32,000 nucleotides of DNA, from positions 3,270,001 through 3,302,000 of the forward strand of contig OY969938.1 in the NCBI GenBank assembly GCA_963704755.1, written 5' to 3'. Below are positions 7,149 through 23,701 of this stretch, piece after piece. The position numbers and the translations under genes were made by a program. The notes under the pieces were generated by a model. That model ran no database searches, was not told the DNA's origin, and saw only the letters and a program-made list of their open reading frames with translations. The stretch is from an uncultured Chloroflexia bacterium. Its GTDB lineage: Bacteria > Chloroflexota > Anaerolineae > Anaerolineales > Anaerolineaceae. Within the stretch, counting starts at the first letter, position 1; every line of letters starts with the position of its first letter.

Positions 7149-7345
7149 AACCCATGCCTCATCAACCATTTTCTACTCTCGATTCTCTTTTTCCCCAACT
7201 AGCCCCTGCACAACTGACCGCCGGGATATATAATTAACTCAGGACTCAGCTCCTAAATTCCCTTATCCATACAATTCAATCACAAAACAGGTCCGGTTTT
7301 TTTGGGGGAGGTGGGTTATGGCCCGATTTCGGATTGTTTTAAGCC

Positions 7346-7579
7346 TTGCCCTGGCGGCTGTATTTACTCCTGGCTGCTGCGACCGTCGTGGCCGGCTACC
7401 TCCGCGCTATCCGCATGGCCCGGGTCCGGTTGGATTGCCTGGGCAGCCGGGGGATCGCGACTTCCTGCGGCCCGGTCGATTATGCCTGCGTGGCGGCTGG
7501 CTGCCCGCTGCCGGGCAAGCTGCGCGGCTTTGTGCGCCTCTTCGGCCCCCATTTCACCTGGATCGCGCTCCTCTCCTGA
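7346..7579 (+). CDS. hypothetical small membrane / Cys-containing protein (start and frame uncertain)
   Basis: This frame has strongly GC-biased third codon positions. It encodes a TM-like segment (WRLYLLLAAATVVAGYL) followed by four Cys residues. The only good RBS (GGAGG) serves the ATG at 7318, which is in a different frame. Confidence 0.3.
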   Translation: MPWRLYLLLAAATVVAGYLRAIRMARVRLDCLGSRGIATSCGPVDYACVAAGCPLPGKLRGFVRLFGPHFTWIALLS

Positions 7580-7648
7580 AAGGAGCCCTTTTTTGGAGAA
7601 GTCGCCAATCATTCTCTGAATAATTCGGATTTGATAAGGAAAAGGATC

Positions 7649-8170: not shown

Positions 8171-8176
8171 ATGGAT

Positions 8177-8929
8177 CTACGCCGCCATTTTCTCCCGGGA
8201 CATAATGACCATGCGCACACCCAGGGGGAAGATTTTTTCCGCAAATCCGCTATCGACCGCTTGCAGGACGGGATCCAGGTTTTCGACCACCGACCCGCCT
8301 AACAGATCGATGCCGTAATCGAAAAGCACCGGGCTGAGTAAGGTGCTGGGTCCCAGCATGATCACGTACGCCTGGGGGGAACAAAGCTTCAACAGTCCTT
8401 CCAGGGTGCCGTTGATCAGGGTCATGCCGGTGATGGCGACCACGTCGGCCTGCGGGATCACTTCGGGCGCCGCATCGGCAGGGTAGTCCCCGGGCTGGGG
8501 ATTCAATTCGAGCACATCCAATCGGCCGACCTGTTGGCGCAGGACCGGGACGGCGGGGAAATGCCCGATCATGGCTACCCGTTTGCCGGCGCCGCGCTGG
8601 ACGATGACCTGCTCGGCATTACGATCCACCCAACATTCCGGCCGGCGGGGCATCAATGCATTCATGGTCGCTACGCCCACGCTGGCGAGCAGCAAATCGG
8701 GTTGGGCGGCCATACTGCATAGTGCGCGAGCAGGGCGGGCCTGTAAGGTCCCGGCCAATCCGGCCGGCACTTGCCGGGCGGGTATCTCGAATCGAGCCGG
8801 GTTGGATGCCATCCCGCAGCTTAAGTGACCGTCCACCTGGGCCACAACTGCGTTCCAATGTTCCCCCAAATGAATATCTCTAATCGTCCCCTCGGGCAGG
8901 TTATCGATCACTTCTTGCAAGATTGTCAT
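8177..8929 (-). CDS. DUF364/DUF4213 (putative heavy-metal chelation, Rossmann-like) domain protein
   Basis: The translation from MTILQEVIDNLPEG...HLGEHWNAVV...VAMIGHFP...DVVAITGMTLINGTLEGLL resembles the DUF364 family. The upstream part of the ORF (to 9112) starts at a TTG inside a TATAAT box and looks like 5' leader. Confidence 0.7.
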   Translation of the reverse strand: MTILQEVIDNLPEGTIRDIHLGEHWNAVVAQVDGHLSCGMASNPARFEIPARQVPAGLAGTLQARPARALCSMAAQPDLLLASVGVATMNALMPRRPECWVDRNAEQVIVQRGAGKRVAMIGHFPAVPVLRQQVGRLDVLELNPQPGDYPADAAPEVIPQADVVAITGMTLINGTLEGLLKLCSPQAYVIMLGPSTLLSPVLFDYGIDLLGGSVVENLDPVLQAVDSGFAEKIFPLGVRMVIMSREKMAA

Positions 8930-9119
8930 ATAGATAAATTGTCCTTGTAAAATGCTCCCCAATCCAAGCCGGTGATCGATCCTATTGGAGGACCGCTTAT
9001 TTTGCCAGCGCAAATATAAATAAGGCAGTGTACCCAGCGACCCGGATAAGAGCAGAGTTGAACGCATGACCTGGCGCCCTGCGCTCATTGATCGGCCGCT
9101 GTGATTATACAATTAATTG

Positions 9120-9233
9120 CCCATTTTCTCAGGCTAGTTCGGAAAAGAGGGGTGTTTTTATTGTTTTTCGCGTGCGAAGCACGCGAAAAACAATAAAAAC
9201 ACCCCTCTTTTTTTGCAGCAGCCGAGTAGTTGC
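9120..9233. repeat. palindromic element P2 (core 9143-9211, centre GCGAAGC)
   Basis: The core is aaaagaggggtgtttttattgtttttcgcgtgc-gaa-gcacgcgaaaaacaataaaaacacccctctttt, with perfect 33-nt arms. The right flank ccgagtagttgc is shared with elements P3-P5. Confidence 0.8.
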
Positions 9234-9246
9234 GGATGGATTTAAA

Positions 9247-9576
9247 TTATTCGGCGAACATCTCTAATAAAATCGCCACAACATCACCCTGGGTAGTTTT
9301 ATCGATTCCTCCAAGCTTTTTTACCAGGCGGATCTTATCCACAGTGCGGATTTGATCCAGGACGATTTGCCCGGCTTTCCCTTCAAACTGGCAATTCACA
9401 CGGGTTGGGTAGTTTCGTCCTCTGGCCGTCATCGGGGCTACGATAACCGTTGCGATGTAATTGTTCATCTCATCTGGCGAGATGATAAGGCAGGGACGCG
9501 TTTTTTGGATCTCGCTTCCAATCGTGGGGTCCAGGTTGATAAGATAGACTTCGAACCGTTTGACTACCATGTCCAT
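9247..9576 (-). CDS. mazF: type II toxin, PemK/MazF family endoribonuclease
   Basis: The translation RFEVYLINLDPTIGSEIQKTRPCLIISPDEMN...VAPMT is the classic MazF/PemK N-terminus. The start overlaps the upstream antitoxin stop. The ATG at 9570 is an alternative start. Confidence 0.9.
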   Translation of the reverse strand: MDMVVKRFEVYLINLDPTIGSEIQKTRPCLIISPDEMNNYIATVIVAPMTARGRNYPTRVNCQFEGKAGQIVLDQIRTVDKIRLVKKLGGIDKTTQGDVVAILLEMFAE

Positions 9577-9824
9577 TCTTCCTCATCCCATTGAGTGGAA
9601 GCGGGCCCATCCAGTAAGTGGTCGTCACCCTGCCCTGCCATTCCGGCAAAGCGGTCGCCCCAACCCTGGCGTGGAAGGTGCGCTGCCTGGATGATGAGTT
9701 TATTTCCTTCGACTTTCATCTCGACCTCATCAATCAGCCCGGCCTGTTCCAAAATGGTATGAGGAATACGAATTCCGCGGGAATTACCGATTTTTACAAT
9801 TTTTGAACGGATGGTCATGTCCAT
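9564..9824 (-). CDS. mazE: AbrB/MazE/SpoVT family antitoxin
   Basis: IVKIGNSRGIRIPHTILEQAGL is the swapped-hairpin (SpoVT/AbrB) motif. The 86-aa product is encoded immediately upstream of mazF and overlaps it. Confidence 0.85.
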   Translation of the reverse strand: MDMTIRSKIVKIGNSRGIRIPHTILEQAGLIDEVEMKVEGNKLIIQAAHLPRQGWGDRFAGMAGQGDDHLLDGPASTQWDEEEWTW

Positions 9825-9845
9825 TGATTACCTCTTTGTGCATAT

Positions 9846-9874
9846 ATTGTATTTACGCGGAGGCTGTTCGTCAA
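9846..9874 (-). promoter_or_regulatory. mazEF promoter candidate
   Basis: On the minus strand, TTGACG (9869-9874), a 17-nt spacer and TACAAT (9846-9851) lie ~20 nt upstream of the ATG at 9824. Confidence 0.5.
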
Positions 9875-9926
9875 GTTTGAGCTTTAAGTTTCCTGTTTGC
9901 TGATCGGGGGAAGTATAAGAAAAATT

Positions 9927-10038
9927 GTAACTGCTCAACCTAACAGGGAAGGGCCCCGAATTTGAGGTGTTTGCGGGGGCGAAGCCCTCGCAAACACCTC
10001 AAATTCGGGGATTTTTTAACAGGAGCCTGAGTAGTTAC
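9927..10038. repeat. palindromic MITE/REP-like element P3 (core 9954-10010, centre GCGAAGC)
   Basis: The ends gtaactgctca (9927-9937) / tgagtagttac (10028-10038) are inverted repeats. The core is ccccgaatttgaggtgtttgcgggggc-gaa-gccctcgcaaacacctcaaattcgggg, with one mismatch. Confidence 0.8.
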
Positions 10039-10053
10039 GAAAAATTCAAAAAA

Positions 10054-10088
10054 AGAGGCTCTCCTAAAACAACTTTGGGACAGCCTCT
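10054..10088 (-). terminator. Rho-independent terminator candidate for the CPBP gene; hairpin with a conserved loop
   Basis: The stem agaggct / agcctct has the loop ctcctaaaacaactttgggac. The plus-strand A-run at 10046-10054 gives a T-run after the hairpin on the minus strand. A sister copy lies at 25652-25683. Confidence 0.5.
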
Positions 10089-10154
10089 TGGATGTTAATC
10101 CTCAAGCTATGTGCACTTGCGGTAGATACGGCCTGGTTCCGGCTAGAGATGGAA

Positions 10155-11084
10155 TCAATGGATGGGCTGCGGTTCGATTTCCCCTAACATCACGGGCGGC
10201 TCCTGGCTGGGCTGGTAGCCAAGCTGGCCACGGGTCAGGATAACGATCACCAGGGCCGGAATCCCAAAACCGATGAGGGCAGCCAGGTTCAGGCTGGTGG
10301 TGTCCAAGGCCAGGAAGAGCGGAACCAAAACAACCTGGGGAGTATTGACACTGGCATGCGCCAGAATCGAGATAAAGAGGCTGCCCTGGTTATGGTTAAA
10401 AATCCAGGTCAAGAGGATGGAGAGCGCCAATACCAGCAGCAGAAAAATGGGGAAGTTCGTCAGGAACGTAGCCCATCCGGTGCCAGGGCCACCCCCTTGT
10501 GCCGGGGTCAGGAAGTGCGGCAAATGCCAACAGGTCCATAAAACCCCCAGGAGCAAGGTGCCCCGCAAGGCGCCATAACGCGATTGCAAGCGCGGCAAAG
10601 CAAAGCCCCGCCAACCGATTTCTTCCCCCAGCGGGCCGCCGCCGAAGAAGACGGCGATAAAAGTGAAGGGATAACTCACCAGCAAGACAGGCTGAAGCCC
10701 CTGAAAGCTGGCCAGCGCGCCAGGGATGACGCAGATCCCAATCAGGATCAATGCCGGGATGCCCAGCAGGACGAACAGATACCACTGCCAGCTTGCACGC
10801 ACTTGCCTCAACCGATTCCGCAAGTGAAGCAGACCGGCCTTGCCCTCGGTGAGATTGGTCATGATGATGGCCGCTAAAGTTGGCCCGACAAAGGGGTTAA
10901 GAACGAAGGCGATCGTGTAATCCCCTTTGATGAGGCCCCAAACAGAGAGAATATAGGGGATCAAAATGATCCAGGAAAAAGCGTACGACATGAAAAAGAA
11001 AGAGAACAGCGGATGCTGGCGCATCACCTGTTGCAGCCTTCTTGCAGAAGATGCTGGCTGGCTGGATTCCTGTAAATTATTCAC
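10155..11084 (-). CDS. CPBP family intramembrane glutamic endopeptidase (CAAX protease-like)
   Basis: The product is polytopic. It has the CPBP motif 1 (GPLGEEIGWRGFALPRL) and downstream conserved His residues (WTCWHLPH, LAHASVN). The GTG start at 11084 is uncertain. Confidence 0.8.
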   Translation of the reverse strand: MNNLQESSQPASSARRLQQVMRQHPLFSFFFMSYAFSWIILIPYILSVWGLIKGDYTIAFVLNPFVGPTLAAIIMTNLTEGKAGLLHLRNRLRQVRASWQWYLFVLLGIPALILIGICVIPGALASFQGLQPVLLVSYPFTFIAVFFGGGPLGEEIGWRGFALPRLQSRYGALRGTLLLGVLWTCWHLPHFLTPAQGGGPGTGWATFLTNFPIFLLLVLALSILLTWIFNHNQGSLFISILAHASVNTPQVVLVPLFLALDTTSLNLAALIGFGIPALVIVILTRGQLGYQPSQEPPVMLGEIEPQPIH

Positions 11085-12376: not shown

Positions 12377-12494
12377 GCGAACTCCTTATGATGATCAAAG
12401 TGTGAGGGAAAGAACGGGCGGTGCGACCAAAAGCGGGCGCATCGCTTTTGGGATGGCCTGGGAATTGGAATGAAAATCCCATAGACGTATGTAA

Positions 12495-12522
12495 ATTATA
12501 CAATTGCTCCAATGATTGTCTA
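12495..12522 (-). promoter_or_regulatory. promoter candidate for the dienelactone hydrolase gene (AATTGTATAATTT motif)
   Basis: On the minus strand, TAGACA (12517-12522), a 16-nt spacer and TATAAT (12495-12500) lie ~120 nt upstream of the ATG at 12376. Confidence 0.35.
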
Positions 12523-12732
12523 ATTTTTGAGGGCCTGGGTTTTTATTGACCACCCGAAAACACAGGCTGGTGATTTCTCCGCCGGCGGCCAGGCCGGTTC
12601 GCTAGAGCTGAATACCCATTCGATTTCTGGCCGGCGCATAGCGTAATCATGTTTTTGGTGGGTTCCGTGAACCGCTGCGCCGAATCGGTGATTTTCTTTA
12701 TTCGATCTTGGGTACAATTCATTTAAATACAC

Positions 12733-12839
12733 AACTGCTCCGGCTGACCTGGAGGAACCCTGAATTTCGGGTGTTTATGGGAGCGGCGTCCTCGCAAACA
12801 CCTTGAATTCGGGAACATTTTTCAGGGTACTGAGCAGTT
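12733..12839. repeat. degenerate palindromic element P5
   Basis: The ends aactgctc (12733-12740) / gagcagtt (12832-12839) are inverted. The core ccctgaatttcgggtgtttatggg...ctcgcaaacaccttgaattcggg is clearly related to P3 but is imperfect. Confidence 0.7.
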
Positions 12840-12865
12840 CCTTAACTAAAAAAACTGGTTACCCC

Positions 12866-13597
12866 ATGCCCTTTTTAAATTCAATCCGCACGATTGGCAA
12901 TATTGAAGATGAACGCAAATATCCATTTAACATTCCGGTGTTTTCAAGCGGGATCAATCTTGATTTCACCGCGAATGTCACCTTCTTTGTGGGCGAAAAT
13001 GGATCGGGAAAATCGACGCTGCTGGAGGCAATCGCGGAAAATTGCGGGTTCAATCCCTCGGGCGGGAACCGCAACCACACTTATCCATTTCGCAAAACCG
13101 AATCCGACCTGGGCTCGCTGCTGCGATTTTCGTGGTTCCCCAGGGTGACGGATGGCTTCTTTATGCGGGCGGAGAGTTTCTTCAACTTTGCCAGCTATAT
13201 CGATGACATGGCCAGCGATGATCCGGGGCTGTATGGCGCCTATGGCGGCAAGTCTTTGCATGGCCAATCGCATGGTGAGGCGTTCCTGGCGCTCTTCGAA
13301 AACCGGTTCAGGAAAGGCATCTACATATTAGACGAGCCAGAGGCGGCCTTATCCCCCAAAAGACAATTATCTCTGCTGGTGATTATCCATGAACTCGAGA
13401 AATCCGGCAACGCCCAGTTCATCATCGCCACCCATTCGCCGATCCTCCTCAGTTATCCCGGGGCGCTGATCTACAGTTTCGATCAAAATCCCATCACGCC
13501 GGTCGAGTATAAGGACACCGAACATTATCAAATCACCCACGAGTTTTTGGCGAACCCCGAGCTCTTTTATCGACACCTGTTCGCGGAGGATGAATAG
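12866..13597 (+). CDS. stand-alone ABC-type / AAA family ATPase (COG3910-like)
   Basis: It has Walker A FFVGENGSGKSTLLEAIA (nt ~12992-13018), Walker B IYILDEPEAALSP and an H-loop IIATHSPILL. I prefer the ATG at 12866 because the TTG at 12803 lies inside repeat P5. Confidence 0.8.
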   Translation: MPFLNSIRTIGNIEDERKYPFNIPVFSSGINLDFTANVTFFVGENGSGKSTLLEAIAENCGFNPSGGNRNHTYPFRKTESDLGSLLRFSWFPRVTDGFFMRAESFFNFASYIDDMASDDPGLYGAYGGKSLHGQSHGEAFLALFENRFRKGIYILDEPEAALSPKRQLSLLVIIHELEKSGNAQFIIATHSPILLSYPGALIYSFDQNPITPVEYKDTEHYQITHEFLANPELFYRHLFAEDE

Positions 13598-14074: not shown

Positions 14075-14460
14075 GATAAATCTCCAAAGACCTGTTTTAT
14101 GATCTATGCTGCGATCATAACTGATCTACGATAAATTTCCAGGTAAGTTCCAAAATGGCGGTCATGTTTTGGAGCTCGTTGGAGACGCAGGTGAGGAGCG
14201 CCTATGATTTCGCCTCCCGGCTGGACGGGGACGTGCAGGTTCTGGCCGTGGGCGGATTGGTGGAGGGGGAGGAGGTTCGTGGAAGGGCAGATAAAATACT
14301 CTTGAGTATATTAGATGCGATCAAAATTGTGCCTCTCCTACTTTTAACTGCCATATCGAGCAGGTAAACGATTTGGTGGTAGAAAATTAAATCTTAATTG
14401 GGCTGAAAAGAGAATATTGGAATCAGTTCAGCACTCAAGAATGCGAGAAAATTATACAAG

Positions 14461-16563
14461 CTATACATCTATAGATTGCAAATATTTTATCAATTTTTCG
14501 GAAGTCATTCCTTTACGCAAGTCAATGTAAGAAACACCAAGATGTTCGCTAATTTTATCTGGTTGGAGAAAATACATTACCCCTGATAACGTGATAATTT
14601 GATCGTCAATTAATTTTTGTAATATAGCAGAACCTGTTTGGTTTTTCAATATTCTCACATGCTCAATTTTGTCTTTAAATCTTGCCATTTTACCTTTGCT
14701 ATGTGAACGAAATTCCATTAGTATCCGCTTTAGTCGAAAATACTTCTCAGTAATTTTAAGATCAGGTGGAAGGCTCTCAATTTTAATTGCATATTTTATT
14801 GCTGGATATGATAAAACATTTAAATTATCAGAAATTAACAATAAATTTACCTCATTCAAAATAATGCTTTCTAGATGAGATTCAATAATTGGGGCTTGAA
14901 GCAATACATCCAAAGTGGTGTTTTTTTTCCAATCAGTCGTTTTTGAGTGGCGAAGTATTAAGGAGTTGGCGTTTAATTTTATATTTTTGGCTGAAATTTC
15001 AACAGGGGTGGTGAACTCTAATTCTTGACTTCCCGAAAAAATGACATTGCATGGCAAAAATATATTAGTGTTAGACAATCGATCTCCCAAATTTATTGTA
15101 ATGTTATTCTCTAAAGTAGATGTAAAGCTAAAAGTTTTTGTTACATTACGTTCAGGCCCAATTAAGATCTCAATTTCGATTAAAAAAGGGACCGGCAATA
15201 TTTCGTCTGAGTCTAAACCGTCGACATTTATTTCTACGGAAGTGGTTGGGGAGGTAAATTCAAGAGCAGAGCTGATAATAATGTGCAAATAATCTGCAGG
15301 TAAATAATTGTTATGCGCGAAATAATTTAGAAAATAAATCAAATGATAGCTATATTTATTGGATTGCAAATATTCTAAAACAAGTTGTTTGCTTTCAGGT
15401 CTGCACGATGTCATTAATTTGGCAATAGCTACTGCCTCAAAAACAACATTGCGAAAACCTCTTCCAGAGATAAACGGATGCTCTGGCAACCATGACTTTA
15501 GAGCTTCTTCATATTTTTCATTAATATGTTGCTCTTCTATGATTTGCAGATTTATGGTTTTATTTAATAAGTAAGCAATAAGGCGAATGCATTGTTCTTC
15601 TTCGCCGAATGCATTCGTATATATTTGGTCTTGCAATTGATTTGACATGTCTGAAACCAAATTACTTAGTATATTAACTTTTACTTTTTGGTCCTTTTCT
15701 CGTTGGAGTATGTAATCTGATATTCTAACTAGCAAGTCAATTTCAACATCATGTCCATCGGGGTTTTTGATTTGATTTAACAGTTTGTAGTAATTTCTTT
15801 CTTCGAACAACAGAGTAACAATAGCATCCAAAACAGGAGGATAACCAATAAAAGATAAAAAGTCGTTGTTCTCCTTTCCAACAAACGCATTACCAAGCAT
15901 TTGTAATATGTAGTTTCTTACTTCTTTGTATTGTGCAAGATCTTTGCTTTTATCAATATTTACGTATTGGTCAATATACCTTTCTGCACTGGCAATATCA
16001 AAAGGAAGGATAGATATTAATCCAGTGCTTATACCTTTTTCCATAAAATAAAGCCAACAATCTTCAAGAGTCTTTGTACGCCCTAGCAAAACAAAACTTG
16101 TACCTACTGACAAATTTCCACACAACTGGCATATGTTATCTAAAAATGCCTCGAAAGCCTTTTCTTTTGTCTTAGAACGTCCTTCGTCAATTCCATCGAT
16201 GATCATTCCATAAGTGCTATTTTCAAGCCCAAGGAATATTTGACTTAAATCTTCAGTTTTAAATGATGTAGTAATAATGCCAGTAAGGGTGTTATCACCA
16301 ACAGGCTTATGTTTGCTCAGATCTAATATAGGTAAACCAGTTTGATTTGATAATACTTGCGCCAAAGCTGTTTTTCCAGTAGCGCCAACTGCTGAAACTA
16401 ATATAACTCTTGGTTTTTCTTCATCGAAAATAACTTTAGATAGACTTGGTTCTATGTATGGTTTTTCCCATGGTTGTGCAATATACAAAGATTCAGTTGC
16501 CAATCGGAGCTTAAAAGGCATTTTTTTTGCTGAAAATATCGATTTCAATCCATAAAAATTCAT
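14461..16563 (-). CDS. STAND (NACHT-like) P-loop NTPase, 700 aa, no recognisable effector or repeat domain
   Basis: It has Walker A AVGATGKT (residues 58-65, nt 16369-16392) and Walker B GMIIDGIDEG (nt 16183-16206), the hhhhDGhDE form typical of NACHT/STAND proteins. FVLLGRTK follows and has a sensor-1-like Arg. A GGAG RBS (caggagaaagaaATG) precedes the start. Sampled lines of the gene are roughly 30% GC, against ~60% in the flanks. Confidence 0.8.
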   Translation of the reverse strand: MNFYGLKSIFSAKKMPFKLRLATESLYIAQPWEKPYIEPSLSKVIFDEEKPRVILVSAVGATGKTALAQVLSNQTGLPILDLSKHKPVGDNTLTGIITTSFKTEDLSQIFLGLENSTYGMIIDGIDEGRSKTKEKAFEAFLDNICQLCGNLSVGTSFVLLGRTKTLEDCWLYFMEKGISTGLISILPFDIASAERYIDQYVNIDKSKDLAQYKEVRNYILQMLGNAFVGKENNDFLSFIGYPPVLDAIVTLLFEERNYYKLLNQIKNPDGHDVEIDLLVRISDYILQREKDQKVKVNILSNLVSDMSNQLQDQIYTNAFGEEEQCIRLIAYLLNKTINLQIIEEQHINEKYEEALKSWLPEHPFISGRGFRNVVFEAVAIAKLMTSCRPESKQLVLEYLQSNKYSYHLIYFLNYFAHNNYLPADYLHIIISSALEFTSPTTSVEINVDGLDSDEILPVPFLIEIEILIGPERNVTKTFSFTSTLENNITINLGDRLSNTNIFLPCNVIFSGSQELEFTTPVEISAKNIKLNANSLILRHSKTTDWKKNTTLDVLLQAPIIESHLESIILNEVNLLLISDNLNVLSYPAIKYAIKIESLPPDLKITEKYFRLKRILMEFRSHSKGKMARFKDKIEHVRILKNQTGSAILQKLIDDQIITLSGVMYFLQPDKISEHLGVSYIDLRKGMTSEKLIKYLQSIDV

Positions 16564-16723
16564 TTCTTTCTCCTGTGAATTAAAGTTGTAATTTAACGAA
16601 CAATAAGTTGTATCGTTAATGTAGCTGTTATGAAAATTAAATAGGGTTTGATCTAGATTTATCTGTGCTATTGCGGAAAAGTCGGTAATAAGAAAAACAA
16701 CGTCCCCCTTTCTCCCAATTAAA

Positions 16724-16752
16724 ATTATACAATTTTCTTACAGGTTTTTCAA
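16724..16752 (-). promoter_or_regulatory. promoter candidate of the STAND NTPase gene (AATTGTATAATTT motif)
   Basis: On the minus strand, TTGAAA (16747-16752), a 17-nt spacer and TATAAT (16724-16729) lie ~160 nt upstream of the ATG at 16563. Confidence 0.45.
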
Positions 16753-16824
16753 CTTCGTTTTATCCTGACGCATAGCCAAATAGCATGATCCTCACAACCC
16801 AAAACAATAACTTTATAAAATCAG

Positions 16825-17606
16825 CTTGAAGAGCGGCCTCGGTCTGGAGACCGGGCCGATCCACTTTGGGCCATCGTTCTTTTAAACATCAATTTCTCTT
16901 TTTCTTTTCTTTCTTTTCTCCGTGTCCTCCGTGCCTCTGTGGTTTTTATTTCTGAATTTTTAAAGGGCGGCGCTGTAACGGTGCGTTCCGGGCATGCCAG
17001 GGTAGGCCAGTTGCCTGGTGTTCAACCATGCTCGGGATGTCAGCCCTAAAACGCACCCTACGACAGCGCTCTTCTAAAAATTCTTCTCTGCGCTCCACAC
17101 GCCCTGGCGGGCGGTGCCATGGTCCGCGTATCAGCGGTGAAACATTTAGCGCCGTAGGGTGGGTGCAGGGCTCATAAACAACGCTGGCGAACAAAAAGCA
17201 GATGTCCCAACCCGGGGATTGCCCGTAACCCACCGTTATATCCGGATGGTAGGTTACGGGCAAGGTTTCGTAGGTCTTGTCGGTATGTAGGTAGCCGGCG
17301 TTATGAATCGGCCCTGCACCCACCCTACATTTCTGAATTTTAAAGGGCGGCGCTGTAACGGTGCGTTCCGGGCACGCCAGGGTAGGCCAACGGTATGGTT
17401 ATTCAACCATGCACGGGATGTCAGCCCTAAAACGCACCCTACGCCGGTGCATTTTTTTATAAAATCTTCTCTGCGCTCTCCGCGCCTCTGCGGTGAATTT
17501 TCCTGGCCAGCCAATAAGAGCGGCCTCGGCCGACAGAAAGGGGGGAGAGACCGGGCCGATCACTCCTTTTTATTCTCTTCTCCGTGACCTCCGTGCCTCC
17601 GTGGTT
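16825..17606 (+). repeat. composite modular repeat array (C-A-B-A'-X-B-A'-C-A)
   Basis: C hairpins (gagcggcctcgg...gaccgggccgatc) lie at 16825-16860 and 17514-17560. B long hairpins lie at 16961-17063 and 17341-17444. The CTCCGTG and CTCTGCG heptamer modules are also present, with the nested inverted-repeat element X at 17153-17327. Confidence 0.8.
17153..17327. repeat. MITE-like element with perfect 18-bp terminal inverted repeats
   Basis: The terminal repeats are GTAGGGTGGGTGCAGGGC (17153-17170) and GCCCTGCACCCACCCTAC (17310-17327). An internal 14-bp hairpin is gcccgtaacccacc / ggtaggttacgggc. The repeat begins with the same cGTAGGGTG as the reverse complement of the B-hairpin arm. Confidence 0.75.
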
Positions 17607-17668
17607 AAACCTCTTATCTGGTTGTAAAATTAAGCCGTAACAAAATCCACCCTGTAAGGAGCCCGGTA

Positions 17669-19074: not shown

Positions 19075-19503
19075 TTAACCGGGGTTTAGGGAGATTTTTC
19101 TGTCCGCCACCTGGGATACGATCTGGATGGGATTGCCGTCCGGGTCCATAACCCAGGCCGAACGCAACGTGGATAGGAAATCGTGAGGCGGGCTGAGGCT
19201 GGGGATGCCTTTGGCGATCAGGTCCGCATAGGCTGCATCCACGTTCTCCGTCCAAACCACCAGCTCGGCTCGTGGGGATCCGGCATCATGGCCGAGCGGT
19301 AGGCCGTGCATGGCCTGGGCGGACTTTTTGGAGGCCAGACCCAGGGTGAGTGAACCCAACCGGACCTCTACGTGGTCCGGTTTACCGTGTTGGTGGGTAC
19401 GGAAGGTTTCGACGAAACCAAAATGGTCGGTGTAAAAACGCACTGCTTTTTCAACGTCTTCGACGTAGTAGTTGATGGCCGGGTCGGTGTATTGGATGGG
19501 CAT
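19075..19503 (-). CDS. VOC (glyoxalase/bleomycin-resistance/dioxygenase) family protein
   Basis: This 142-aa product has the N-terminal INYYVEDVEKAVRFYTDHFGF motif typical of the VOC fold. Confidence 0.8.
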   Translation of the reverse strand: MPIQYTDPAINYYVEDVEKAVRFYTDHFGFVETFRTHQHGKPDHVEVRLGSLTLGLASKKSAQAMHGLPLGHDAGSPRAELVVWTENVDAAYADLIAKGIPSLSPPHDFLSTLRSAWVMDPDGNPIQIVSQVADRKISLNPG

Positions 19504-19666
19504 GGGGGTGATTCCATTAGGTATCAGTATTATCTTTTCTCTGCGATTATTCTGGTCATTATAAATTGAAGATCTAAAATCGTGCGGTCCGATTTTGACC
19601 GCACCTTACATGCTTTGGGAATCGTCTTTCAAGAAATCAAGAAATAAAAATATTTTAGAAACACCG

Positions 19667-20044
19667 TTACCCATTTAATTCTTTTATCACATTACCGAAA
19701 AATATACCCGCGATTTTTGCAAAAATTTCTATGGTTTGAGGTAAGTTTTTCTTTTCAACCTCCTGTTTTGTATTTTCCCAAACGCTTTCATTTCGAATTA
19801 ATTCCAGGTAGTCATAACCAGAGCTGGTAAGGTTTCCAATTTGAAATTCTAGAATGGTATTATCTCCATATATTGGCTTATATTCGGTAATTAAACCCTG
19901 TTGAAAAAGCAAACCACAGTGTTCGGCAATTATCGGTAGACCATACCCTTCAATGAAAAGACCAAACAGTAAGCCATCTCCTGGCTTATATTTCTCTTCT
20001 ATCTCGAAGAGAATTTTTCGAATCAGAACCATGTCTCGCTTCAT
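19667..20044 (-). CDS. DUF2513-like small protein (probable winged-helix fold)
   Basis: This 125-aa product starts MKRDMVLIRKILFEIEE, as I remember DUF2513 family members doing. An AGGAG RBS lies 9 nt upstream. The gene is AT-rich relative to its flanks. Confidence 0.65.
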   Translation of the reverse strand: MKRDMVLIRKILFEIEEKYKPGDGLLFGLFIEGYGLPIIAEHCGLLFQQGLITEYKPIYGDNTILEFQIGNLTSSGYDYLELIRNESVWENTKQEVEKKNLPQTIEIFAKIAGIFFGNVIKELNG

Positions 20045-20269
20045 TGCGATATACTCCTAAAAAATCTTTTATGCCGATCTTTTAATAATCTCCATTTCAA
20101 ACGAATACCATGAAAAGAAAATAAGGTGCGGTCCGGTTTTTGCAGCACCATTTTGCAGTGGATAGCCGGAAGACCCTGTCGAAATCCCCCTGGTTACAAT
20201 TACATTATACATATTTCTCTTTAAATTATTACAGTCGCTTCCCTATTGCCCTACCAATTTTGACAGATC

Positions 20270-21316
20270 AAACCAGCGTTGAAGAGCGGCCACGGCCGAG
20301 GGTTGCGAGGGGCCGGGCCGATCTGCTTTTAACAAATATTCTTTCCTGTTCTAAACTCTTTTATCTTCGTTTTTCTCAGTGAACTCCATGCTTCCGTGGT
20401 TTCCTTTTCTTTCTCCGCGCTCTCTGCGTCTCTGCGGTGAAATAAAAAACCGGCGTTGAAGAGCGGCCTCGGCCGAGGGTTGCGAGGGACCGGGCCGATC
20501 TGCTTTTTATTAATATTCTTTCCTGTTCAAAACTCCTTATTCTTCGTTTTTCTCCGTGCCTCCGTGGTTTGATTCGTAAAGGCGGCGCCATAACGGTGCG
20601 TTCCGGGCACGCCAGGGTAGGCTGGTGGGCAGGTGGTCCGCCTGCGCCAGGGACGTCAGCTCTAAAACGCACCCTACGACGGCTTTAAAATATTAATTTC
20701 TCTTCTTCTCTTTCTTTTCTCCGTGAACTCTGTGTGCTCCGTGGTTTGATTCGTAAAGGCGGCGCCATAATGGTGCGTTCCGGGGACGCCAGGGTAGGCT
20801 GGTGGGCTGGTGGTCCGCCGGCCCCAGGGACGTCAGCCCTAAAACGCACCCTACGACGGCTTTAAAATATTAATTTCTCTTCTTCTCCTTCTTTTCTCCG
20901 TGAACTCTGTGTGCTCCGTGGTTTGATTCGTAAAGGCGGCGCCATAACGGTGCGTTCCGGGCACGCCAGGGTAGGCTAGTGGGCAGGTGGTTCGCCGGCG
21001 CCAGGGACGTCGGCCCTAAAACGCACCCTACGACGGCTTTAAATATTAATTTCTCTTCTTCACTTTCTCTTCTCCGTGAACTCTGTGTGCTCCGTGGTTT
21101 GATTCGTAAAGGCGGCGCCATAACGGTGCGTTCCGGGCACGCCAGGGTGGGCTAGTGGGCAGGTGGTTCGCCGGCGCCAGGGACGTCAGCCCTCAAACGC
21201 ACCCTACGACGGCTTTAAAATATTAATTTCTCTTCTTCTCTTTCTTTTCTCCGTGAACTCCGTGCCTCCGTGGTTTAAATCTTCTTCCCTCCGCGCCCTC
21301 TGCGCCTCTGCGGTGT
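20270..21316 (+). repeat. tandem modular repeat array: two C-type units, then four B-type units spaced 176-177 bp apart
   Basis: The anchor gattcgtaaaggcggcgcc recurs at 20571, 20748, 20925 and 21101. C-type units start at 20270 and 20449. Each unit ends with the CTCCGTG-CTCTGTG-CTCCGTG module. The array closes with CTCCGCG-CTCTGCG-CTCTGCG at 21289-21312. Confidence 0.9.
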
Positions 21317-21465
21317 AATACTAGCCAATGGTCCAGTCAGACCCTATATAAGTGCGTGCGGAAGACAATCAATATCGGTTTATATATTGCAAATAGGATA
21401 AACAATGGCTAAAATGAAATCCAAGGTGGATTTGCAAACCGAAAATCCAGAAAAAGTGAAAAGGA

Positions 21466-22590
21466 ATGCCCGTTGATTCTGATCTAGACGATCTTCAAGA
21501 GTCGCCATCCTTTGAAATCACTGTTTCGCGCGGATTAGCCGGTTGGTTGGCTGCCCAGAAAGTCAGCCTGGCGTTCACCATCCCGGCCCAAAAAGTTTTT
21601 TTTCTTGGCATTAAACCTGATGGCAGTCTTTCGGTTTTCGAGCGGACGATGCAGCGTTGTATGGGTATCGCTGCGGTCGGCTCGAAAACTTTGTATTTAA
21701 GCACGCGTTACCAGATCTGGCGCATGGAGTGCCCTTTGGGCCCCGGCCAGCTTGCCGAGGGGGGATATGATCGCCAGTATATTCCCCGCCTGGCTTACAC
21801 CACCGGGCTGCTAAACACCCACGATGTGACCGTGGATGCACAGGGGCGGGTGCTTTTTGTCGCTACCCGTTTTGGCTGCCTGGCCAGCGTCAGCGAACAA
21901 TACAATTTTGTGCCGCTGTGGTCCCCGCCGTTTCTTTCCGGCCTGGCGTCTGGGGATCGCTGCCACCTGAACGGCATCGCCCTGGTGGATGGCCTGCCGG
22001 CTTATGCCAGCAGTGTCAGCCAGGACGATACCCTGGAGGGCTGGCGCGACCATCGCCGCGCCGGCGGCACGATCACGGATGTGCACACCAACCAGATCGT
22101 CCTGACGGGCTTATCCATGCCGCACTCGCCGCGCTGGTATCGCGACCGGCTGTGGCTGACCAATTCCGGCACCGGCCAATTTGGCTGGGTGAACCTGGAA
22201 CGCGGCGCTTTCGAGCCGGTGACCTTCGCGCCCGGGTTTTTACGCGGCCTGAGCTTCGTGGGCGACTATGCCATCGTCGGATCGTCGAAGCCGCGCTATG
22301 GCAACGTGTATTCGGGCCTGGCCCTGGATGATGAATTGGAACGGCGCAATCAAAAGGCTCATCTGGGCTTTTTTATCGTCAATCTACAGACCGGCCAGGT
22401 GGAGCACTGGTTTTTTATCGAAAGCGACGCCATGCGCGAGCTTTACGATATTGTCGCGCTCCCCGGCATCCGCCAGCCCATGGCCCTGGGCTTTATGACC
22501 GATGAAATTCTGCGCAGTATTTGGTTCGACCCGCCCTCCTTCGCTAAATCCGATTCCAAAGCAGCGGGCTATGTTCAAATGAAAGAATAG
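21466..22590 (+). CDS. TIGR03032 family protein (paralogue 1)
   Basis: This 374-aa product carries motifs I associate with TIGR03032/DUF4915: VSLAFT, YQIWR, NTHD, CHLNGIAL, MPHSPRWY.DRLWLTNSGTGQFG and FLRGLSF.GDYAIVGSS. Confidence 0.75.
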   Translation: MPVDSDLDDLQESPSFEITVSRGLAGWLAAQKVSLAFTIPAQKVFFLGIKPDGSLSVFERTMQRCMGIAAVGSKTLYLSTRYQIWRMECPLGPGQLAEGGYDRQYIPRLAYTTGLLNTHDVTVDAQGRVLFVATRFGCLASVSEQYNFVPLWSPPFLSGLASGDRCHLNGIALVDGLPAYASSVSQDDTLEGWRDHRRAGGTITDVHTNQIVLTGLSMPHSPRWYRDRLWLTNSGTGQFGWVNLERGAFEPVTFAPGFLRGLSFVGDYAIVGSSKPRYGNVYSGLALDDELERRNQKAHLGFFIVNLQTGQVEHWFFIESDAMRELYDIVALPGIRQPMALGFMTDEILRSIWFDPPSFAKSDSKAAGYVQMKE

Positions 22591-22597
22591 CGTCCGT

Positions 22598-23701
22598 ATG
22601 TCTACAAAAGCGCAAAACCTGGCTGCGATCGATTTGTACGAACTGGTCGAATTGCTGGACTACCAGGTCGAATGTTCCCCCCATTTCGCGGAGTGGATGG
22701 CCGAGCAGCAGGTCAGCCTGGGGTTTACCAGTAAGCTCGAAAACAGCTTGTTCCTGGTGGGCCTCAAGCCCGATGGGCAGTTAGCCGTCTCGGAGCACAC
22801 CTTCGAGCACGGAATGGGCCTGGTGGCTCCCAGTTCACAAAGCCTTTACCTGGTCACCCAGTACCAGATCTGGCGCCTCGAAAATGCCCTGCCGCCCGGC
22901 CGGTTGACGGATGATGGCTGCGACCGCTTTTACGTTCCGCAAATGGGCTACACTACCGGGCAAGTCAATATCCACGACCTGGCGGTGGGGGAGGATGGCC
23001 AGATTTACTTTGCCTGCACGGCCTTTAGCTGCCTGGCCACCACCAGCCCCAGGCTCAACTTTGTCCCGCTGTGGCAGCCGCCCTTCCTGAACAGTTTTAC
23101 AGCCGAAGATGTCTGCCACCTCAACGGACTGGCCCTGCGCCAGGGCCGCCCGGCGTACATGACCTGTTTTGCCCAAACCACCACCAGCGAGGGCTGGCGC
23201 GATCGGCGCCTGGATGGCGGCGCCGTTTTCGACCTGGAGGCAAACCAGGCCATTTTGACGGGCCTTTGCATGCCCCATTCGCCGCGCTGGTACCAGGACC
23301 GTTTGTGGCTGACCAATTCCGGGGCCGGCCAATTCGGCTATGTGGACCTATCGCACGGGCGTTTCGAGCCGGTTGTGGAAGCCCCAGGCTATTTACGCGG
23401 GCTGGCTTTTTACGGTGATTACGCTGTGGTCGGCTCTTCGCAAGCCAGGAGCAGCGACCTTTTTAGCGGTCTGCCTTTACTCGACAGGCTGCAAATGAAC
23501 CAGGCCCAACCCCATCGTGGGTTGTACGTGGTTCATTTGCCCTCTGGCCAGATCAAACATTGGCTGAGTTTTGAAGTGAGTAAAGGAGAAATATATGATG
23601 TCGTGATCCTGCCCGGCGTACGCCGGCCCAAGGCCACCGGCCAGCACACCCTGGATATCCAAAAATGGGTGACGGTTGCCCCGATGGCCTCGCTTTACTG
23701 A
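22598..23701 (+). CDS. TIGR03032 family protein (paralogue 2)
   Basis: This 367-aa product is collinear with the upstream gene and shares the same motif set (VSLGFT, YQIWRLEN, CHLNGLAL, MPHSPRWYQDRLWLTNSGAGQFG, YLRGLAFYGDYAVVGSS). The intergenic gap is 7 nt. Confidence 0.75.
   Translation: MSTKAQNLAAIDLYELVELLDYQVECSPHFAEWMAEQQVSLGFTSKLENSLFLVGLKPDGQLAVSEHTFEHGMGLVAPSSQSLYLVTQYQIWRLENALPPGRLTDDGCDRFYVPQMGYTTGQVNIHDLAVGEDGQIYFACTAFSCLATTSPRLNFVPLWQPPFLNSFTAEDVCHLNGLALRQGRPAYMTCFAQTTTSEGWRDRRLDGGAVFDLEANQAILTGLCMPHSPRWYQDRLWLTNSGAGQFGYVDLSHGRFEPVVEAPGYLRGLAFYGDYAVVGSSQARSSDLFSGLPLLDRLQMNQAQPHRGLYVVHLPSGQIKHWLSFEVSKGEIYDVVILPGVRRPKATGQHTLDIQKWVTVAPMASLY

What the first reader, a model, noticed from the sequence alone, without database searches (positions are those of the whole stretch)
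14291..16800. AT-rich 2.5-kb island carrying an orphan 700-aa STAND/NACHT-like NTPase: candidate single-gene defence system
GC content drops abruptly from about 60% to about 30% (hand count of sample lines) between ~14291 and ~16800. The island holds exactly one gene, at 14461-16563 on the minus strand. Its product has a P-loop (AVGATGKT), a NACHT-style Walker B (MIIDGIDEG) and a following FVLLGR strand. This core is typical of STAND signalling NTPases such as the Avs, bNACHT and AVAST families. Only ~50 residues precede the P-loop, so there is no N-terminal nuclease, TIR, protease or SIR2 effector. I can see no TPR, WD40 or LRR periodicity in the ~530-residue C-terminal region. The last ~90 residues might be a winged helix, but that is a guess. 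An identical 12-mer, AAAATTATACAA, lies at 14448-14459 (abutting the stop codon) and at 16721-16732 (in the promoter region). The gene is therefore bracketed by direct repeats. A GC-rich ORF fragment is cut off at the left boundary. There is no integrase or transposase in the window. A foreign-composition, single-gene STAND cassette of unknown architecture is the profile of an uncharacterised antiviral sensor or effector.
Basis: partly seen in the sequence, partly recalled or inferred. Interest (0 to 1): 0.8.

Follow-up and report, generated by a model that had tools for sequence, protein, structure and literature searches.

The report
Foreign stand-alone NACHT-like NTPase gene
A 2.5-kb AT-rich insert in a GC-rich (probably Anaerolineae) chromosome carries one intact gene for an unnamed but widespread NLR/NACHT-like ATPase that moves between phyla and often sits beside restriction systems, so it is a credible but untested candidate for a new single-gene antiviral sensor.

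Summary
GC falls from about 0.58 to about 0.32 at 14291, and foreign DNA ends near 16828. One intact 700-aa gene (14461-16563, minus strand; GC3 0.27 against 0.63-0.80 in neighbours) lies inside, with a near-consensus promoter and a Shine-Dalgarno site. The protein matches no Pfam, NCBIfam or PADLOC model. It is not an orphan: it belongs to a family of over 1,100 clusters at 50% identity, about 700 aa and conserved end to end. The AlphaFold model (pLDDT 84.5) matches NLRC4, NLRP3 and Avs4 best. The Walker B motif DGIDE fits the NACHT signature D[GAS]hDE in 115 of 117 members. After the NACHT-like module come a variable all-beta domain with no structural match and a conserved winged-helix-like C-terminus. 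There is no N-terminal effector. The gene is poorer in GC than its flanks in 36 of 37 loci across many phyla, and no partner gene is conserved. In two phyla it lies between hsdS and hsdR. It also occurs in a prophage-like contig and on plasmids. The 12-mer "direct repeat" is best read as promoter -10 sequence, not an insertion scar. Verdict: a horizontally acquired STAND NTPase and a plausible, unproven defence gene; a new variant of a known kind.

The parts
14291..16828 (.). AT-rich foreign island (GC about 0.32 against about 0.58 in the flanks)
   Evidence: The left change point is 14291. The right end is set by the start of a host dispersed repeat at 16829.
14461..16563 (-). 700-aa NACHT-like STAND NTPase gene (stop codon included). 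It is intact and keeps every family-invariant residue.
   Evidence: GC3 is 0.27.
16369..16386 (-). Walker A / P-loop codons, G60-T65 (GATGKT). G63 and K64 are invariant in 117/117 sequences.
16183..16209 (-). Walker B codons, residues 119-127 (GMIIDGIDE). This is the NACHT-type D[GAS]hDE signature.
   Evidence: One search gives the frequencies: D 115/117, A/G/S 117/117, D 117/117, E 117/117. The signature definition comes from the paper read.
15964..16416 (-). Nucleotide-binding alpha/beta domain, residues about 50-200. It includes the sensor-1-like R162 (invariant).
   Evidence: Model secondary structure, Foldseek and conservation.
15259..15963 (-). Helical region, residues 201-435, read as the HD1/WHD/HD2-like part of the NOD. 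It carries the invariant motifs FIGYPPVLD (238-246) and EHPF (361-364).
   Evidence: The assignment of H362 as the WHD nucleotide-sensing histidine is an inference.
14770..15258 (-). All-beta domain, residues 436-598. It is the most variable part of the protein and has no match in PDB or BFVD. Proposed sensor.
14464..14769 (-). Conserved C-terminal winged-helix-like domain, residues 599-700, with the FRSHS[KR]G motif and conserved K632 and Y664. Proposed output or nucleic-acid-binding module.
   Evidence: H-S-H-H-S-S topology. Only weak Foldseek hits, all to winged-helix proteins. Conservation.
16724..16752 (-). Sigma-70-type promoter match: TTGAAA, 17-nt spacer, TATAAT (11 of 12). The -10 lies inside the right copy of the 12-mer.
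16570..16574 (-). Shine-Dalgarno AGGAG, 6 nt upstream of the ATG
   Evidence: Read directly from the sequence.
14448..14459 (+). Left copy of the 12-mer AAAATTATACAA (TTGTATAATTTT on the minus strand), next to the stop codon
16721..16732 (+). Right copy of the 12-mer. It contains the promoter -10.
16829..17610 (.). Host GC-rich dispersed repeat copies that abut the island. They are not part of the insert.
   Evidence: The same repeat family occurs at 5306-5373, 20261-21320 and 26500-26770.

Best explanation
The island is a recently acquired single-gene cassette. It encodes a stand-alone NACHT-type STAND NTPase from a large, unnamed, horizontally mobile family.

Most likely function: an intracellular sensor-switch acting in conflicts with phages or other mobile elements.

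Proposed mechanism:
- The N-terminal 435 residues form a nucleotide-binding oligomerisation module (P-loop K64; Walker B D123/D126/E127; R162; invariant H362 in a WHD-like segment). In the resting state this module is presumably held ADP-bound.
- The variable beta domain (436-598) recognises an invader-derived cue.
- Binding allows nucleotide exchange and oligomerisation.
- Oligomerisation clusters the conserved C-terminal winged-helix-like domain (599-700; FRSHS[KR]G, K632, Y664). That domain acts as the output, most plausibly by binding nucleic acid or recruiting a host factor. No nuclease, TIR, SIR2 or protease effector is present.

Shown by tool results: foreign composition, an intact gene with expression signals, the family's size and spread, the STAND/NACHT-like fold and motifs, the domain layout and conservation pattern, and the genomic contexts.

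Inferred only: the defence role, the sensor and effector assignments, the role of H362, and oligomerisation.
For: Foreignness:
- GC 0.33 against 0.55 and GC3 0.27 against 0.63-0.80.
- Family genes are poorer in GC than their flanks in 36 of 37 loci from Planctomycetota, Acidobacteriota, Chloroflexota, Pseudomonadota, Desulfobacterota, Bdellovibrionota and Bacteroidota.
- The closest relatives of this genome (Ung 89-91% identical) have no such gene next to ung.

Functional gene:
- The ORF is intact and every family-invariant residue is retained.
- There is an 11/12 promoter match and an AGGAG site.

STAND/NACHT nature:
- Model pLDDT is 84.5.
- Foldseek best hits: NLRC4 3.7e-7, NLRP3 3e-6, NLRP7, and Avs4 1e-5, followed by ORC, RdrA and MalT.
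- D[GAS]hDE is present in 115/117 sequences (definition read).
- Of 68 distant members, 31 hit NPHP3_N, 19 hit nSTAND3 and 5 hit NACHT at E<=0.05.

Sensor and output split:
- The beta domain is the most variable region (entropy 3.06). The C-terminal 100 residues are second only to the NBD in conservation (2.27 against 2.09).

Defence-type context:
- The order hsdM-hsdS-[gene]-hsdR occurs in L017 (Planctomycetota) and L018 (Desulfomicrobium). Their HsdR proteins are 72% identical.
- Type I R-M genes lie within 4 kb in L021 and L008. That makes 4 of 26 loci; the binomial P is 6e-4 against the 0.0153 background quoted in PMC13581612.
- A ParE toxin-antitoxin pair lies directly upstream in L033.
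- The IMG/VR contig L118 has a large terminase 5 kb away.
- On the Alistipes plasmid the gene sits beside TnpB, KilA-N and an Abi gene.
- On the Acidithiobacillus ferrooxidans plasmid a distant homologue lies at the end of a WYL-regulated multiubiquitin-E1 operon.
- No conserved partner gene was found, which is consistent with a single-gene system.
Against: - No phenotype data exist.
- The window's immediate neighbours are housekeeping genes (DDN-like, ung). Most homologue loci show metabolic or miscellaneous neighbours.
- The enrichment estimate rests on a hand count of R-M genes, not on a DefenseFinder run, and the 26 loci are few.
- No PADLOC model is matched, even weakly, by the window protein.
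- No recognisable effector is present, so how it would kill or protect is unknown.
- The winged-helix assignment rests on topology and non-significant Foldseek hits (E>=0.19).
- TM-scores to NLRs are low (0.2-0.36). This is expected for multi-domain models but is not proof.
- No homologue was found in 50,697 phage genomes. That fits neither a phage-borne nor an anti-defence role strongly.
Confidence: 0.55

Rival explanations
1. It belongs to a STAND or defence family that has already been catalogued or named. Candidates are the effector-less bNACHT01-like clade 14 (NACHT plus a short C-terminal SNaCT domain) and one of the 589 STAND clades in Lee et al. 2026. In that case the function is as proposed above, but nothing is new.
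For: - bNACHT01 is a single gene with no fused effector and a short, non-repeat C-terminal extension.
- The 2026 census drew on NCBI nr, which holds members of this family (one search lists NCBI/nr entries).
- D[GAS]hDE is present.
Against: - PADLOC v2 gives no hit for the window protein. Distant members give only marginal hits, to PDC-S01 and mad8 (E>=1e-3).
- The Pfam NACHT model does not detect the window protein.
- In bNACHT01 the lysine is K115, so about 100 residues precede its P-loop, against 56 here.
- In clade 14 the whole C-terminal domain diversifies rapidly. Here the last 100 residues are highly conserved.
- The supplementary tables of the census are not available, so this could not be checked.
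Confidence: 0.25
2. It is a signal-transducing transcription factor of the MalT, AfsR or GutR type. A STAND NTPase would control a C-terminal DNA-binding winged helix, with no role in immunity.
For: - The C-terminal winged-helix-like domain carries conserved basic residues.
- MalT is among the Foldseek hits (8bob, E 3.8e-4).
- STAND regulators are a known class.
Against: - No conserved neighbouring gene or operon was found across 27 loci.
- The gene has lower GC than its host nearly everywhere and a patchy distribution across many phyla.
- It is inserted inside type I R-M operons and in a prophage-like contig.
- It has no LuxR/GerE or BTAD domain and no TPR sensor.
Confidence: 0.1
3. It serves a mobile element rather than the host. 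It could be an ORC/Cdc6-like initiator or loader, a partition or addiction function, or a superinfection-exclusion gene of a plasmid or prophage. The window copy would then be a stranded remnant.
For: - ORC subunits are among the Foldseek hits (E 7e-5 to 4e-4), and ORC/Cdc6 proteins also end in a winged helix.
- Copies occur on three plasmids and in one viral contig.
- The composition is foreign.
Against: - NLR hits outrank ORC hits, and the Walker B motif is NACHT-type.
- Most copies are solitary in chromosomes with no integrase, replication or partition genes nearby.
- There are no hits in 50,697 phage genomes.
- The window copy is intact and has its own promoter.
Confidence: 0.1

Closest known systems
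bNACHT01-like bacterial NACHT proteins (clade 14 of Kibby et al., bioRxiv 10.1101/2022.07.19.500537)
   Same: - Single-gene system.
- NACHT-type Walker B (D[GAS]hDE).
- No fused enzymatic effector.
- A short C-terminal region without repeats in place of TPR or LRR.
- The Walker A lysine is required for defence in bNACHT01.
   Different: - No sequence-level link was found; the window protein hits neither PADLOC nor Pfam NACHT.
- The N-terminal lead-in is shorter (56 residues against about 110).
- The C-terminus here is a variable beta domain followed by a highly conserved winged-helix-like domain. It is not a uniformly fast-evolving SNaCT domain.
- Homology to SNaCT could not be tested.
Avs/AVAST antiviral STAND NTPases (Avs1-24)
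   Same: - STAND NOD core; Avs4 (8dgf) is a Foldseek hit at E 1e-5.
- Single gene, horizontally mobile, with a sensor placed C-terminal to the NOD.
   Different: - Avs proteins carry N-terminal effectors (nuclease, protease, SIR2, TIR and others) and large, mostly TPR-like sensors of at least 400 aa.
- This protein has no N-terminal effector, is only 700 aa long, and has a beta domain of about 160 aa plus a winged helix.
- No PADLOC Avs model matches.
Animal NLR NACHT modules (NLRC4, NLRP3, NLRP7)
   Same: - Best structural matches (E 4e-7 to 1e-5) over 430-790 aligned columns.
- The same Walker A and D[GAS]hDE motifs.
- A conserved histidine in the region corresponding to the WHD (inferred).
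   Different: - 8-14% sequence identity and TM-scores of only 0.2-0.36.
- No CARD or PYD domain and no LRR.
MalT/AfsR-type STAND transcription regulators
   Same: A STAND NTPase combined with a DNA-binding-type domain in one polypeptide.
   Different: - Those use LuxR/GerE or OmpR/BTAD domains and TPR sensors, and they sit next to the operons they regulate.
- This family has no conserved neighbour and behaves as a mobile gene.
PrrC in the E. coli prr locus (from general knowledge, not tested here)
   Same: The position is the same: an NTPase-containing gene inserted between hsdS and hsdR of a type I R-M operon, as in L017 and L018.
   Different: - PrrC is an ABC-type ATPase fused to an anticodon nuclease and is unrelated in fold.
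- The window copy is not next to any R-M system.

Membership tests
STAND NTPase superfamily | P-loop Walker A GxxxxGK[ST] | tested here: met
   G60-A-T-G-K64-T65. G63 and K64 are present in 117/117 family sequences.
STAND NTPase superfamily | Walker B hhhhD followed by acidic residues, and a conserved sensor-1-type Arg on the next core strand | tested here: met
   MIIDGIDE: D123 in 115/117, D126 and E127 in 117/117. FVLLGR: R162 in 117/117. Calling R162 the sensor-1 residue is by analogy.
STAND NTPase superfamily | The NBD is followed by a helical domain and a winged-helix domain (NBD-HD1-WHD) | tested here: inconclusive
   Foldseek ranks STAND proteins first. NLRP3 NACHT-only structures align over 434-469 columns. 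TM-scores are 0.2-0.36, and I could not inspect coordinates to delimit the WHD. The model has a small hairpin at 365-370 just after the invariant EHPF motif.
NACHT clade | D[GAS]hDE signature in Walker B (Koonin and Aravind 2000; quoted in the paper read) | tested here: met
   DGIDE in the window protein. Family frequencies: D 115/117; A76/G40/S1; L/I/V/F/A; D 117/117; E 117/117.
NACHT clade | Match to Pfam NACHT (PF05729) at its gathering score | tested here: not met
   The window protein has no NACHT hit at E<=1. Among 68 distant members, 5 hit NACHT, 31 hit NPHP3_N and 19 hit nSTAND3 at E<=0.05, with best E about 1e-5.
bNACHT01-like clade 14 | Single gene, no fused effector, short non-repeat C-terminal extension | tested here: met
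   No conserved neighbour. 56 residues precede the P-loop. No repeats appear in the model.
bNACHT01-like clade 14 | Homologous SNaCT C-terminal domain that evolves faster than the NACHT module | tested here: inconclusive
   The beta domain is more variable than the NBD, but the last 100 residues are highly conserved. No SNaCT sequence or model was available for comparison.
Avs/AVAST | N-terminal effector domain (nuclease, protease, SIR2, TIR and similar) | tested here: not met
   About 56 residues precede the P-loop, and there is no Pfam or PADLOC hit. The 800-aa relatives have a 110-150-aa N-terminal extension that also lacks any Pfam match.
Avs/AVAST | Large repeat-type (TPR-like) C-terminal sensor, and a match to Avs profile models | tested here: not met
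   The C-terminal region is a beta domain plus a winged helix, 265 aa in all. No PADLOC model hits at E<=1.
STAND transcription regulators (MalT/AfsR type) | A recognised DNA-binding output domain and a conserved adjacent target operon | tested here: not met
   There is no GerE, LuxR or BTAD hit and only a weakly supported winged helix. No neighbour family recurs in more than 3 of 27 loci.
Transposon or integrative element with target-site duplication | A mobility gene (transposase or integrase), with direct repeats at the compositional boundaries | tested here: not met
   The island holds one gene. AT-rich DNA runs beyond both copies of the 12-mer. A 12-mer repeat somewhere in the island arises in 51% of simulations. 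The right copy is the promoter -10.

The most novel reading that the evidence does not exclude
This is a previously unrecognised, widespread family of compact, effector-less NLR-like immune receptors: more than 1,000 clusters at 50% identity, found in at least seven phyla. A new all-beta domain would sense infection. Oligomerisation would then use a conserved C-terminal winged-helix domain as the output, for example by clamping or sequestering nucleic acid. That logic differs from the nuclease, TIR, SIR2 and protease effectors of the known Avs and bNACHT systems.
Probability: 0.3. Interest if true: 0.7.

Novelty: new variant of a known kind. Interest (0 to 1): 0.55.

Why it matters
If the family is antiviral, it adds a compact STAND architecture of 700 aa with no enzymatic effector. 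The sensor and output domains have no counterpart in solved structures. That would help answer how effector-less NACHT proteins such as bNACHT01 execute defence. The family is abundant in uncultured soil, sediment and sludge phyla, which are poorly represented in defence catalogues. It is also small enough for direct genetic and structural work. If it is not antiviral, it is still a large, highly conserved, mobile protein family without any annotation.

Tried and rejected
- Profile searches of the window protein against Pfam, NCBIfam and PADLOC gave nothing significant.
- HMM profiles of the family (A1, A4) against PDB sequences gave only a P-loop match to a kinase.
- Foldseek with the isolated C-terminal model found nothing significant in PDB or BFVD. 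The beta domain remains unassigned.
- I looked for the insertion site in relatives. Ung relatives at 83-92% identity share no synteny upstream of ung. Exact-protein look-ups found only the same strain. No empty site could be recovered, so the boundaries rest on composition alone.
- I tested the 70-aa boundary ORF as a possible truncated gene. It has no homologue other than itself.
- I tested the 12-mer as a target-site duplication and rejected it as the preferred reading.
- All-against-all BLAST of the flanking ORFs found no conserved partner gene.
- A literature search by accession or locus tag of family members found no paper.
- The supplementary tables of the 2026 STAND census are not held.
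- Rfam finds no RNA family anywhere in the window.
Full report
OBSERVATION. The compositional island is real and sharp. In 300-nt windows GC is 0.29-0.37 between about 14300 and 16850, against 0.55-0.64 on both sides. A two-segment likelihood scan puts the left change point at exactly 14291 (0.60 to 0.31) and the right one at 16965. The stretch 16829-17610 consists of copies of a host-genome dispersed repeat that starts with an AT-rich segment. The same repeat family occurs at 5306-5373, 20261-21320 and 26500-26770. Foreign DNA therefore most likely ends at about 16800-16828.

The island holds one long ORF, 14461-16563 on the minus strand, 700 aa. Its GC3 is 0.27, against 0.63-0.80 for six neighbouring genes. 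All quoted motifs are present at the stated residues: SAVGATGKT, MIIDGIDEG and FVLLGR.

The gene has the best sigma-70-type promoter match of the region: TTGAAA, a 17-nt spacer, then TATAAT, 11 of 12 positions, at 16752-16724 on the minus strand. An AGGAG site lies 6 nt before the ATG (sequence).

THE 12-MER. AAAATTATACAA is exact at 14448-14459 and 16721-16732. On the coding strand it reads TTGTATAATTTT, and the right copy is the -10 box of the promoter above. One-mismatch copies lie in other intergenic regions of the window: 12492, 12516 (minus strand) and 31017. In 1,000 first-order Markov simulations of the island, 51% contain some 12-mer direct repeat. A bracketing pair arises in about 1%, but that test is post hoc. 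AT-rich DNA continues 157 nt to the left and about 100 nt to the right of the two copies, so they do not mark the insert's ends. I read them as two -10-like promoter elements rather than a target-site duplication. I cannot exclude that they are a remnant of an insertion event.

The 70-aa ORF across the left boundary (14155-14367) matches only itself among 5.8 billion proteins. Nothing shows that a host gene was truncated.

HOST AND SOURCE. That self-match comes from a 4.87-Mb NCBI/ENA contig. A 3.1-kb Logan contig from run ERR11571143 shows the same gene order. The closest named relatives of the window's Ung are Anaerolineaceae (86-87% identity) and Leptolinea (83%), so the host is probably an Anaerolineae member (Chloroflexota).

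The nearest relatives on long contigs (Ung 91% and 89% identical) carry unrelated genes upstream of ung and no homologue of the 700-aa gene there. Nine metagenomic relatives share only ung, and in some the downstream RibD_C gene as well. The gene is therefore strain- or lineage-specific at this position. The locus is too rearranged to recover an empty site.

THE PROTEIN FAMILY. The window protein hits no Pfam, NCBIfam or PADLOC model. It is not an orphan. A word-indexed search found 396 homologues, the best 120 of them full-length at 45-69% identity, and none carries a Pfam domain or a name. An exhaustive HMMER scan of 1.84 billion cluster representatives found 1,121 hits at E<=1e-3 and 276 at E<=1e-30. 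Most are 690-740 aa and align end to end down to 28% identity. A minority are about 790-830 aa, with a conserved N-terminal extension of 110-150 aa that also lacks any Pfam match.

In GTDB species genomes the family occurs in MAGs of Planctomycetota, Acidobacteriota, Chloroflexota, Beta- and Gammaproteobacteria, Desulfobacterota and Bdellovibrionota. It also occurs on three plasmids, from Alistipes, Acidithiobacillus and Acidiphilium. It was not found in 50,697 phage genomes.

STRUCTURE AND MOTIFS. AlphaFold2 with a 51-sequence alignment gave mean pLDDT 84.5 and pTM 0.71. The layout is:
- an alpha/beta P-loop domain, residues about 40-200;
- an all-helical region, 201-435, with a small hairpin at 365-370;
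- an all-beta domain, 440-598;
- a small C-terminal domain, 599-700, with helix-strand-helix-helix-hairpin topology followed by three short helices.

Foldseek against the PDB ranks NLRC4 (E 3.7e-7), NLRP3, NLRP7 and Avs4 (1.2e-5) first. ORC subunits, RdrA, MalT and the archaeal STAND-like ATPase PAB2304 follow. Generic AAA+ proteins score worse and align only over about 230 columns. TM-scores are low (0.2-0.36), as is common for multi-domain comparisons.

The Walker B motif DGIDE fits the NACHT-defining signature D[GAS]hDE, as quoted in the bNACHT paper. Across 117 diverse members the positions are D 115; A76/G40/S1; aliphatic; D 117; E 117. G63, K64, R162, Y241, P243, L245, R288, Q324, H362, P363 and F375 are also invariant. 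By analogy with the WHD histidine of NLRC4 and Apaf-1, I infer that H362 of the invariant EHPF motif senses the bound nucleotide. This was not tested.

Scanning 68 distant members one by one against Pfam gave sub-threshold but consistent hits: NPHP3_N in 31, nSTAND3 in 19, NACHT in 5 and nSTAND1 in 1, with best E about 1e-5. Together these results support a NACHT-like STAND NOD. By profile criteria the family lies outside the current Pfam NACHT model.

C-TERMINAL HALF. A separate model of residues 436-700 (pLDDT 80.9) has no significant match in PDB or BFVD. The weak PDB hits (E 0.19-1) are almost all winged-helix proteins: Stn1 WH, IclR, CRP/PrfA, TubR and Sso10a. They align to the last 70-120 residues. 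The beta domain matches nothing.

The conservation profile is informative. In the 117-sequence alignment the NBD is most conserved (mean column entropy 2.09). The C-terminal 100 residues come next (2.27), with an FRSHS[KR]G motif, K632 and Y664. The beta domain is the most variable (3.06, the same as the N-terminal 49 residues). A variable middle domain followed by a conserved terminal domain is what a sensor followed by an output module would look like. That assignment is an inference.

GENOMIC CONTEXT OF THE FAMILY. The gene is poorer in GC than its flanks in 36 of 37 loci examined. Differences range from -0.001 to -0.27, and L032 is the one exception. The window's closest relatives (68-69% identity) are themselves about 36% GC in contigs of about 45% GC, one of them from a Pseudobdellovibrionaceae MAG. 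This fits recent acquisition from an AT-rich donor.

All-against-all BLAST of 401 flanking ORFs from 27 loci found no neighbour family present in more than three loci. The gene therefore travels alone. The recurrent neighbours are type I restriction-modification genes:
- In L017 (Planctomycetota) and L018 (Desulfomicrobium) the order is hsdM-hsdS-[gene]-hsdR, on one strand with gaps of 0-100 nt. The two HsdR proteins are 72% identical, so the whole cassette moves between phyla.
- In L021 and L008, HsdM or HsdS lie within 4 kb.

Other nearby genes:
- Within 3.6 kb of 26 loci (148 ORFs): four UvrD-like helicases, two HipA, two SLFN_AlbA_2/HATPase_c_4 proteins, two N6/N4 methylases and four transposases. 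The rest span 119 Pfam families, mostly metabolic.
- L033 has a ParE toxin-antitoxin pair directly upstream and a PDDEXK_5 gene.
- The single IMG/VR hit, L118, has a large-terminase gene 5 kb upstream.
- On the Alistipes plasmid the gene lies between a TnpB/transposase pair and KilA-N, ORF6N and Abi genes.
- On an Acidithiobacillus ferrooxidans plasmid a 24.5%-identical homologue overlaps the end of a WYL-regulated multiubiquitin-ThiF(E1) operon.

Four of 26 loci have type I R-M genes within 4 kb. Against the 0.0153 background quoted by Lee et al. this gives a binomial P of about 6e-4. This is a rough hand count, not a DefenseFinder analysis.

In the window itself the immediate neighbours are ordinary: a DDN/F420H2-like gene and ung. 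A DUF2513 gene in another AT-rich patch lies 3 kb away and a CAP12/Pycsar-type TIR protein 13 kb away.

INTERPRETATION. The best-supported reading is a recently acquired, expressed, stand-alone NACHT-type STAND NTPase from a large mobile family whose contexts lean towards defence and mobile elements.

The proposed mechanism is a nucleotide-gated switch. The variable beta domain senses a cue, the NOD oligomerises, and the conserved winged-helix-like C-terminus delivers the output. Only the anatomy, the conservation and the contexts are shown. The defence role, the domain roles and oligomerisation are inferred. I put about 0.55 on the defence-sensor reading and about 0.85 on the STAND/NACHT-like assignment.

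Rivals:
- It belongs to a clade already catalogued, either bNACHT01-like clade 14 or one of the 589 clades of the 2026 census. I could not test this, because the comparison sequences and supplementary tables were not available.
- It is a MalT-like regulator. Against this: there is no conserved target operon, and the gene behaves as a mobile gene.
- It is an ORC/Cdc6-like or maintenance function of a mobile element. Against this: NLR hits rank first, the Walker B is NACHT-type, and most copies are solitary in chromosomes.

COMPARISON WITH KNOWN SYSTEMS. It works most like the effector-less bNACHT01 class: a single gene, a NACHT core and a short C-terminal region without repeats. It differs in its shorter N-terminus and in a C-terminus whose last domain is highly conserved rather than diversifying. 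It fails two defining features of Avs/AVAST, the N-terminal effector and the large repeat sensor, and matches none of PADLOC's Avs models. It fails the Pfam NACHT threshold but meets the D[GAS]hDE signature.

The position between hsdS and hsdR recalls PrrC in the E. coli prr locus. That comparison comes from general knowledge, is an analogy of position only, and does not apply to the window copy.

NOVELTY AND SCORE. The kind of system, a bacterial NLR-like STAND NTPase, is well known and has been heavily surveyed. This family is unnamed, undetected by Pfam, NCBIfam and PADLOC v2, and has a C-terminal architecture with no structural precedent. I rate it a new variant of a known kind, with interest 0.55. 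It is a good and tractable candidate, but the evidence for function is circumstantial, and it may already be listed in the 2026 STAND census.

Noticed in passing
window 20560-21276; also 16829-17610, 20261-20558, 26500-26770, 5306-5373: A dispersed and tandem GC-rich repeat family with a unit of about 177 nt. There are 4.1 tandem copies at 95% identity at 20560-21276. It contains the motifs CTCCGTGCCTCCGTGGTT and GGCGGCGCCATAACGGTGCGTTCCGGGCACGCC. Copies lie next to each of the AT-rich patches (5001-5500, the 14291-16828 island and 19500-20100). Rfam has no match. It could be a MITE/REP-like element or a recombination hotspot for foreign DNA.
   Followed up: partly
window 19667-20044 (-): A second foreign-looking gene: a 125-aa DUF2513 protein (Pfam E 9e-20) in an AT-rich patch, with GC3 0.32 against about 0.7 in its neighbours.
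   Followed up: partly
window 29925-30743 (-): A 272-aa protein with a CAP12/Pycsar-effector-type TIR domain (PF10137, E 7e-29). It is a possible defence effector 13 kb from the island. A TTGTATAATTTG -10-like motif lies upstream at 31017-31028.
   Followed up: no
window 12803-13597 (+): A small (264 aa) AAA_21/AAA_15 ABC-type ATPase two genes from the island. It matches only the ATPase portions of the PADLOC PtuA, AriA, GajA and mad3 models (E down to 7e-18), and no partner nuclease gene is visible. GC3 is 0.63, slightly below its neighbours.
   Followed up: partly
window 12492-12503 (+), 12516-12527 (-), 31017-31028 (+): One-mismatch copies of the island's 12-mer (TTGTATAATTT on the transcribed strand) lie in intergenic regions upstream of genes. 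This suggests a recurrent -10-type promoter element in this genome.
   Followed up: partly
L037 (CP084174.1, A. ferrooxidans plasmid) 6810-11007: A distant family member (24.5% identity) overlaps by 7 nt the last gene of a multiubiquitin-domain / ThiF-E1 / hypothetical operon with a divergent WYL regulator. This may be a functional link between a subfamily of these NTPases and bacterial ubiquitin-like conjugation systems.
   Followed up: no
P0172, P0182, P0184, P0185, P0186, P0190, P0197, P0199, P0235, P0246, P0258 (N-terminal 110-150 residues): About 800-aa family members share a conserved N-terminal extension (a ...G.LEW..TS.P..F... then W/Y-DE.G... pattern) with no Pfam match. It could be an adaptor or effector domain that the window protein lacks.
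   Followed up: partly
L017 6534-15046 and L018 2678-9245: hsdM-hsdS-[NACHT-like gene]-hsdR cassettes in a Planctomycetota MAG and a Desulfomicrobium MAG have HsdR proteins 72% identical. The type I R-M operon and the embedded gene therefore transfer between phyla as one unit.
   Followed up: partly
window 21466-23701 (+): Two tandem paralogous DUF4915 genes (374 and 367 aa, each Pfam E about 1e-114), immediately after the 177-nt repeat array.
   Followed up: no
window 9929-10017 and 12733-12821; 9143-9211: An 89-nt hairpin-containing repeat occurs twice (74% identity) in intergenic DNA. A perfect 33-nt inverted repeat (a terminator-like hairpin) lies at 9143-9211.
   Followed up: no
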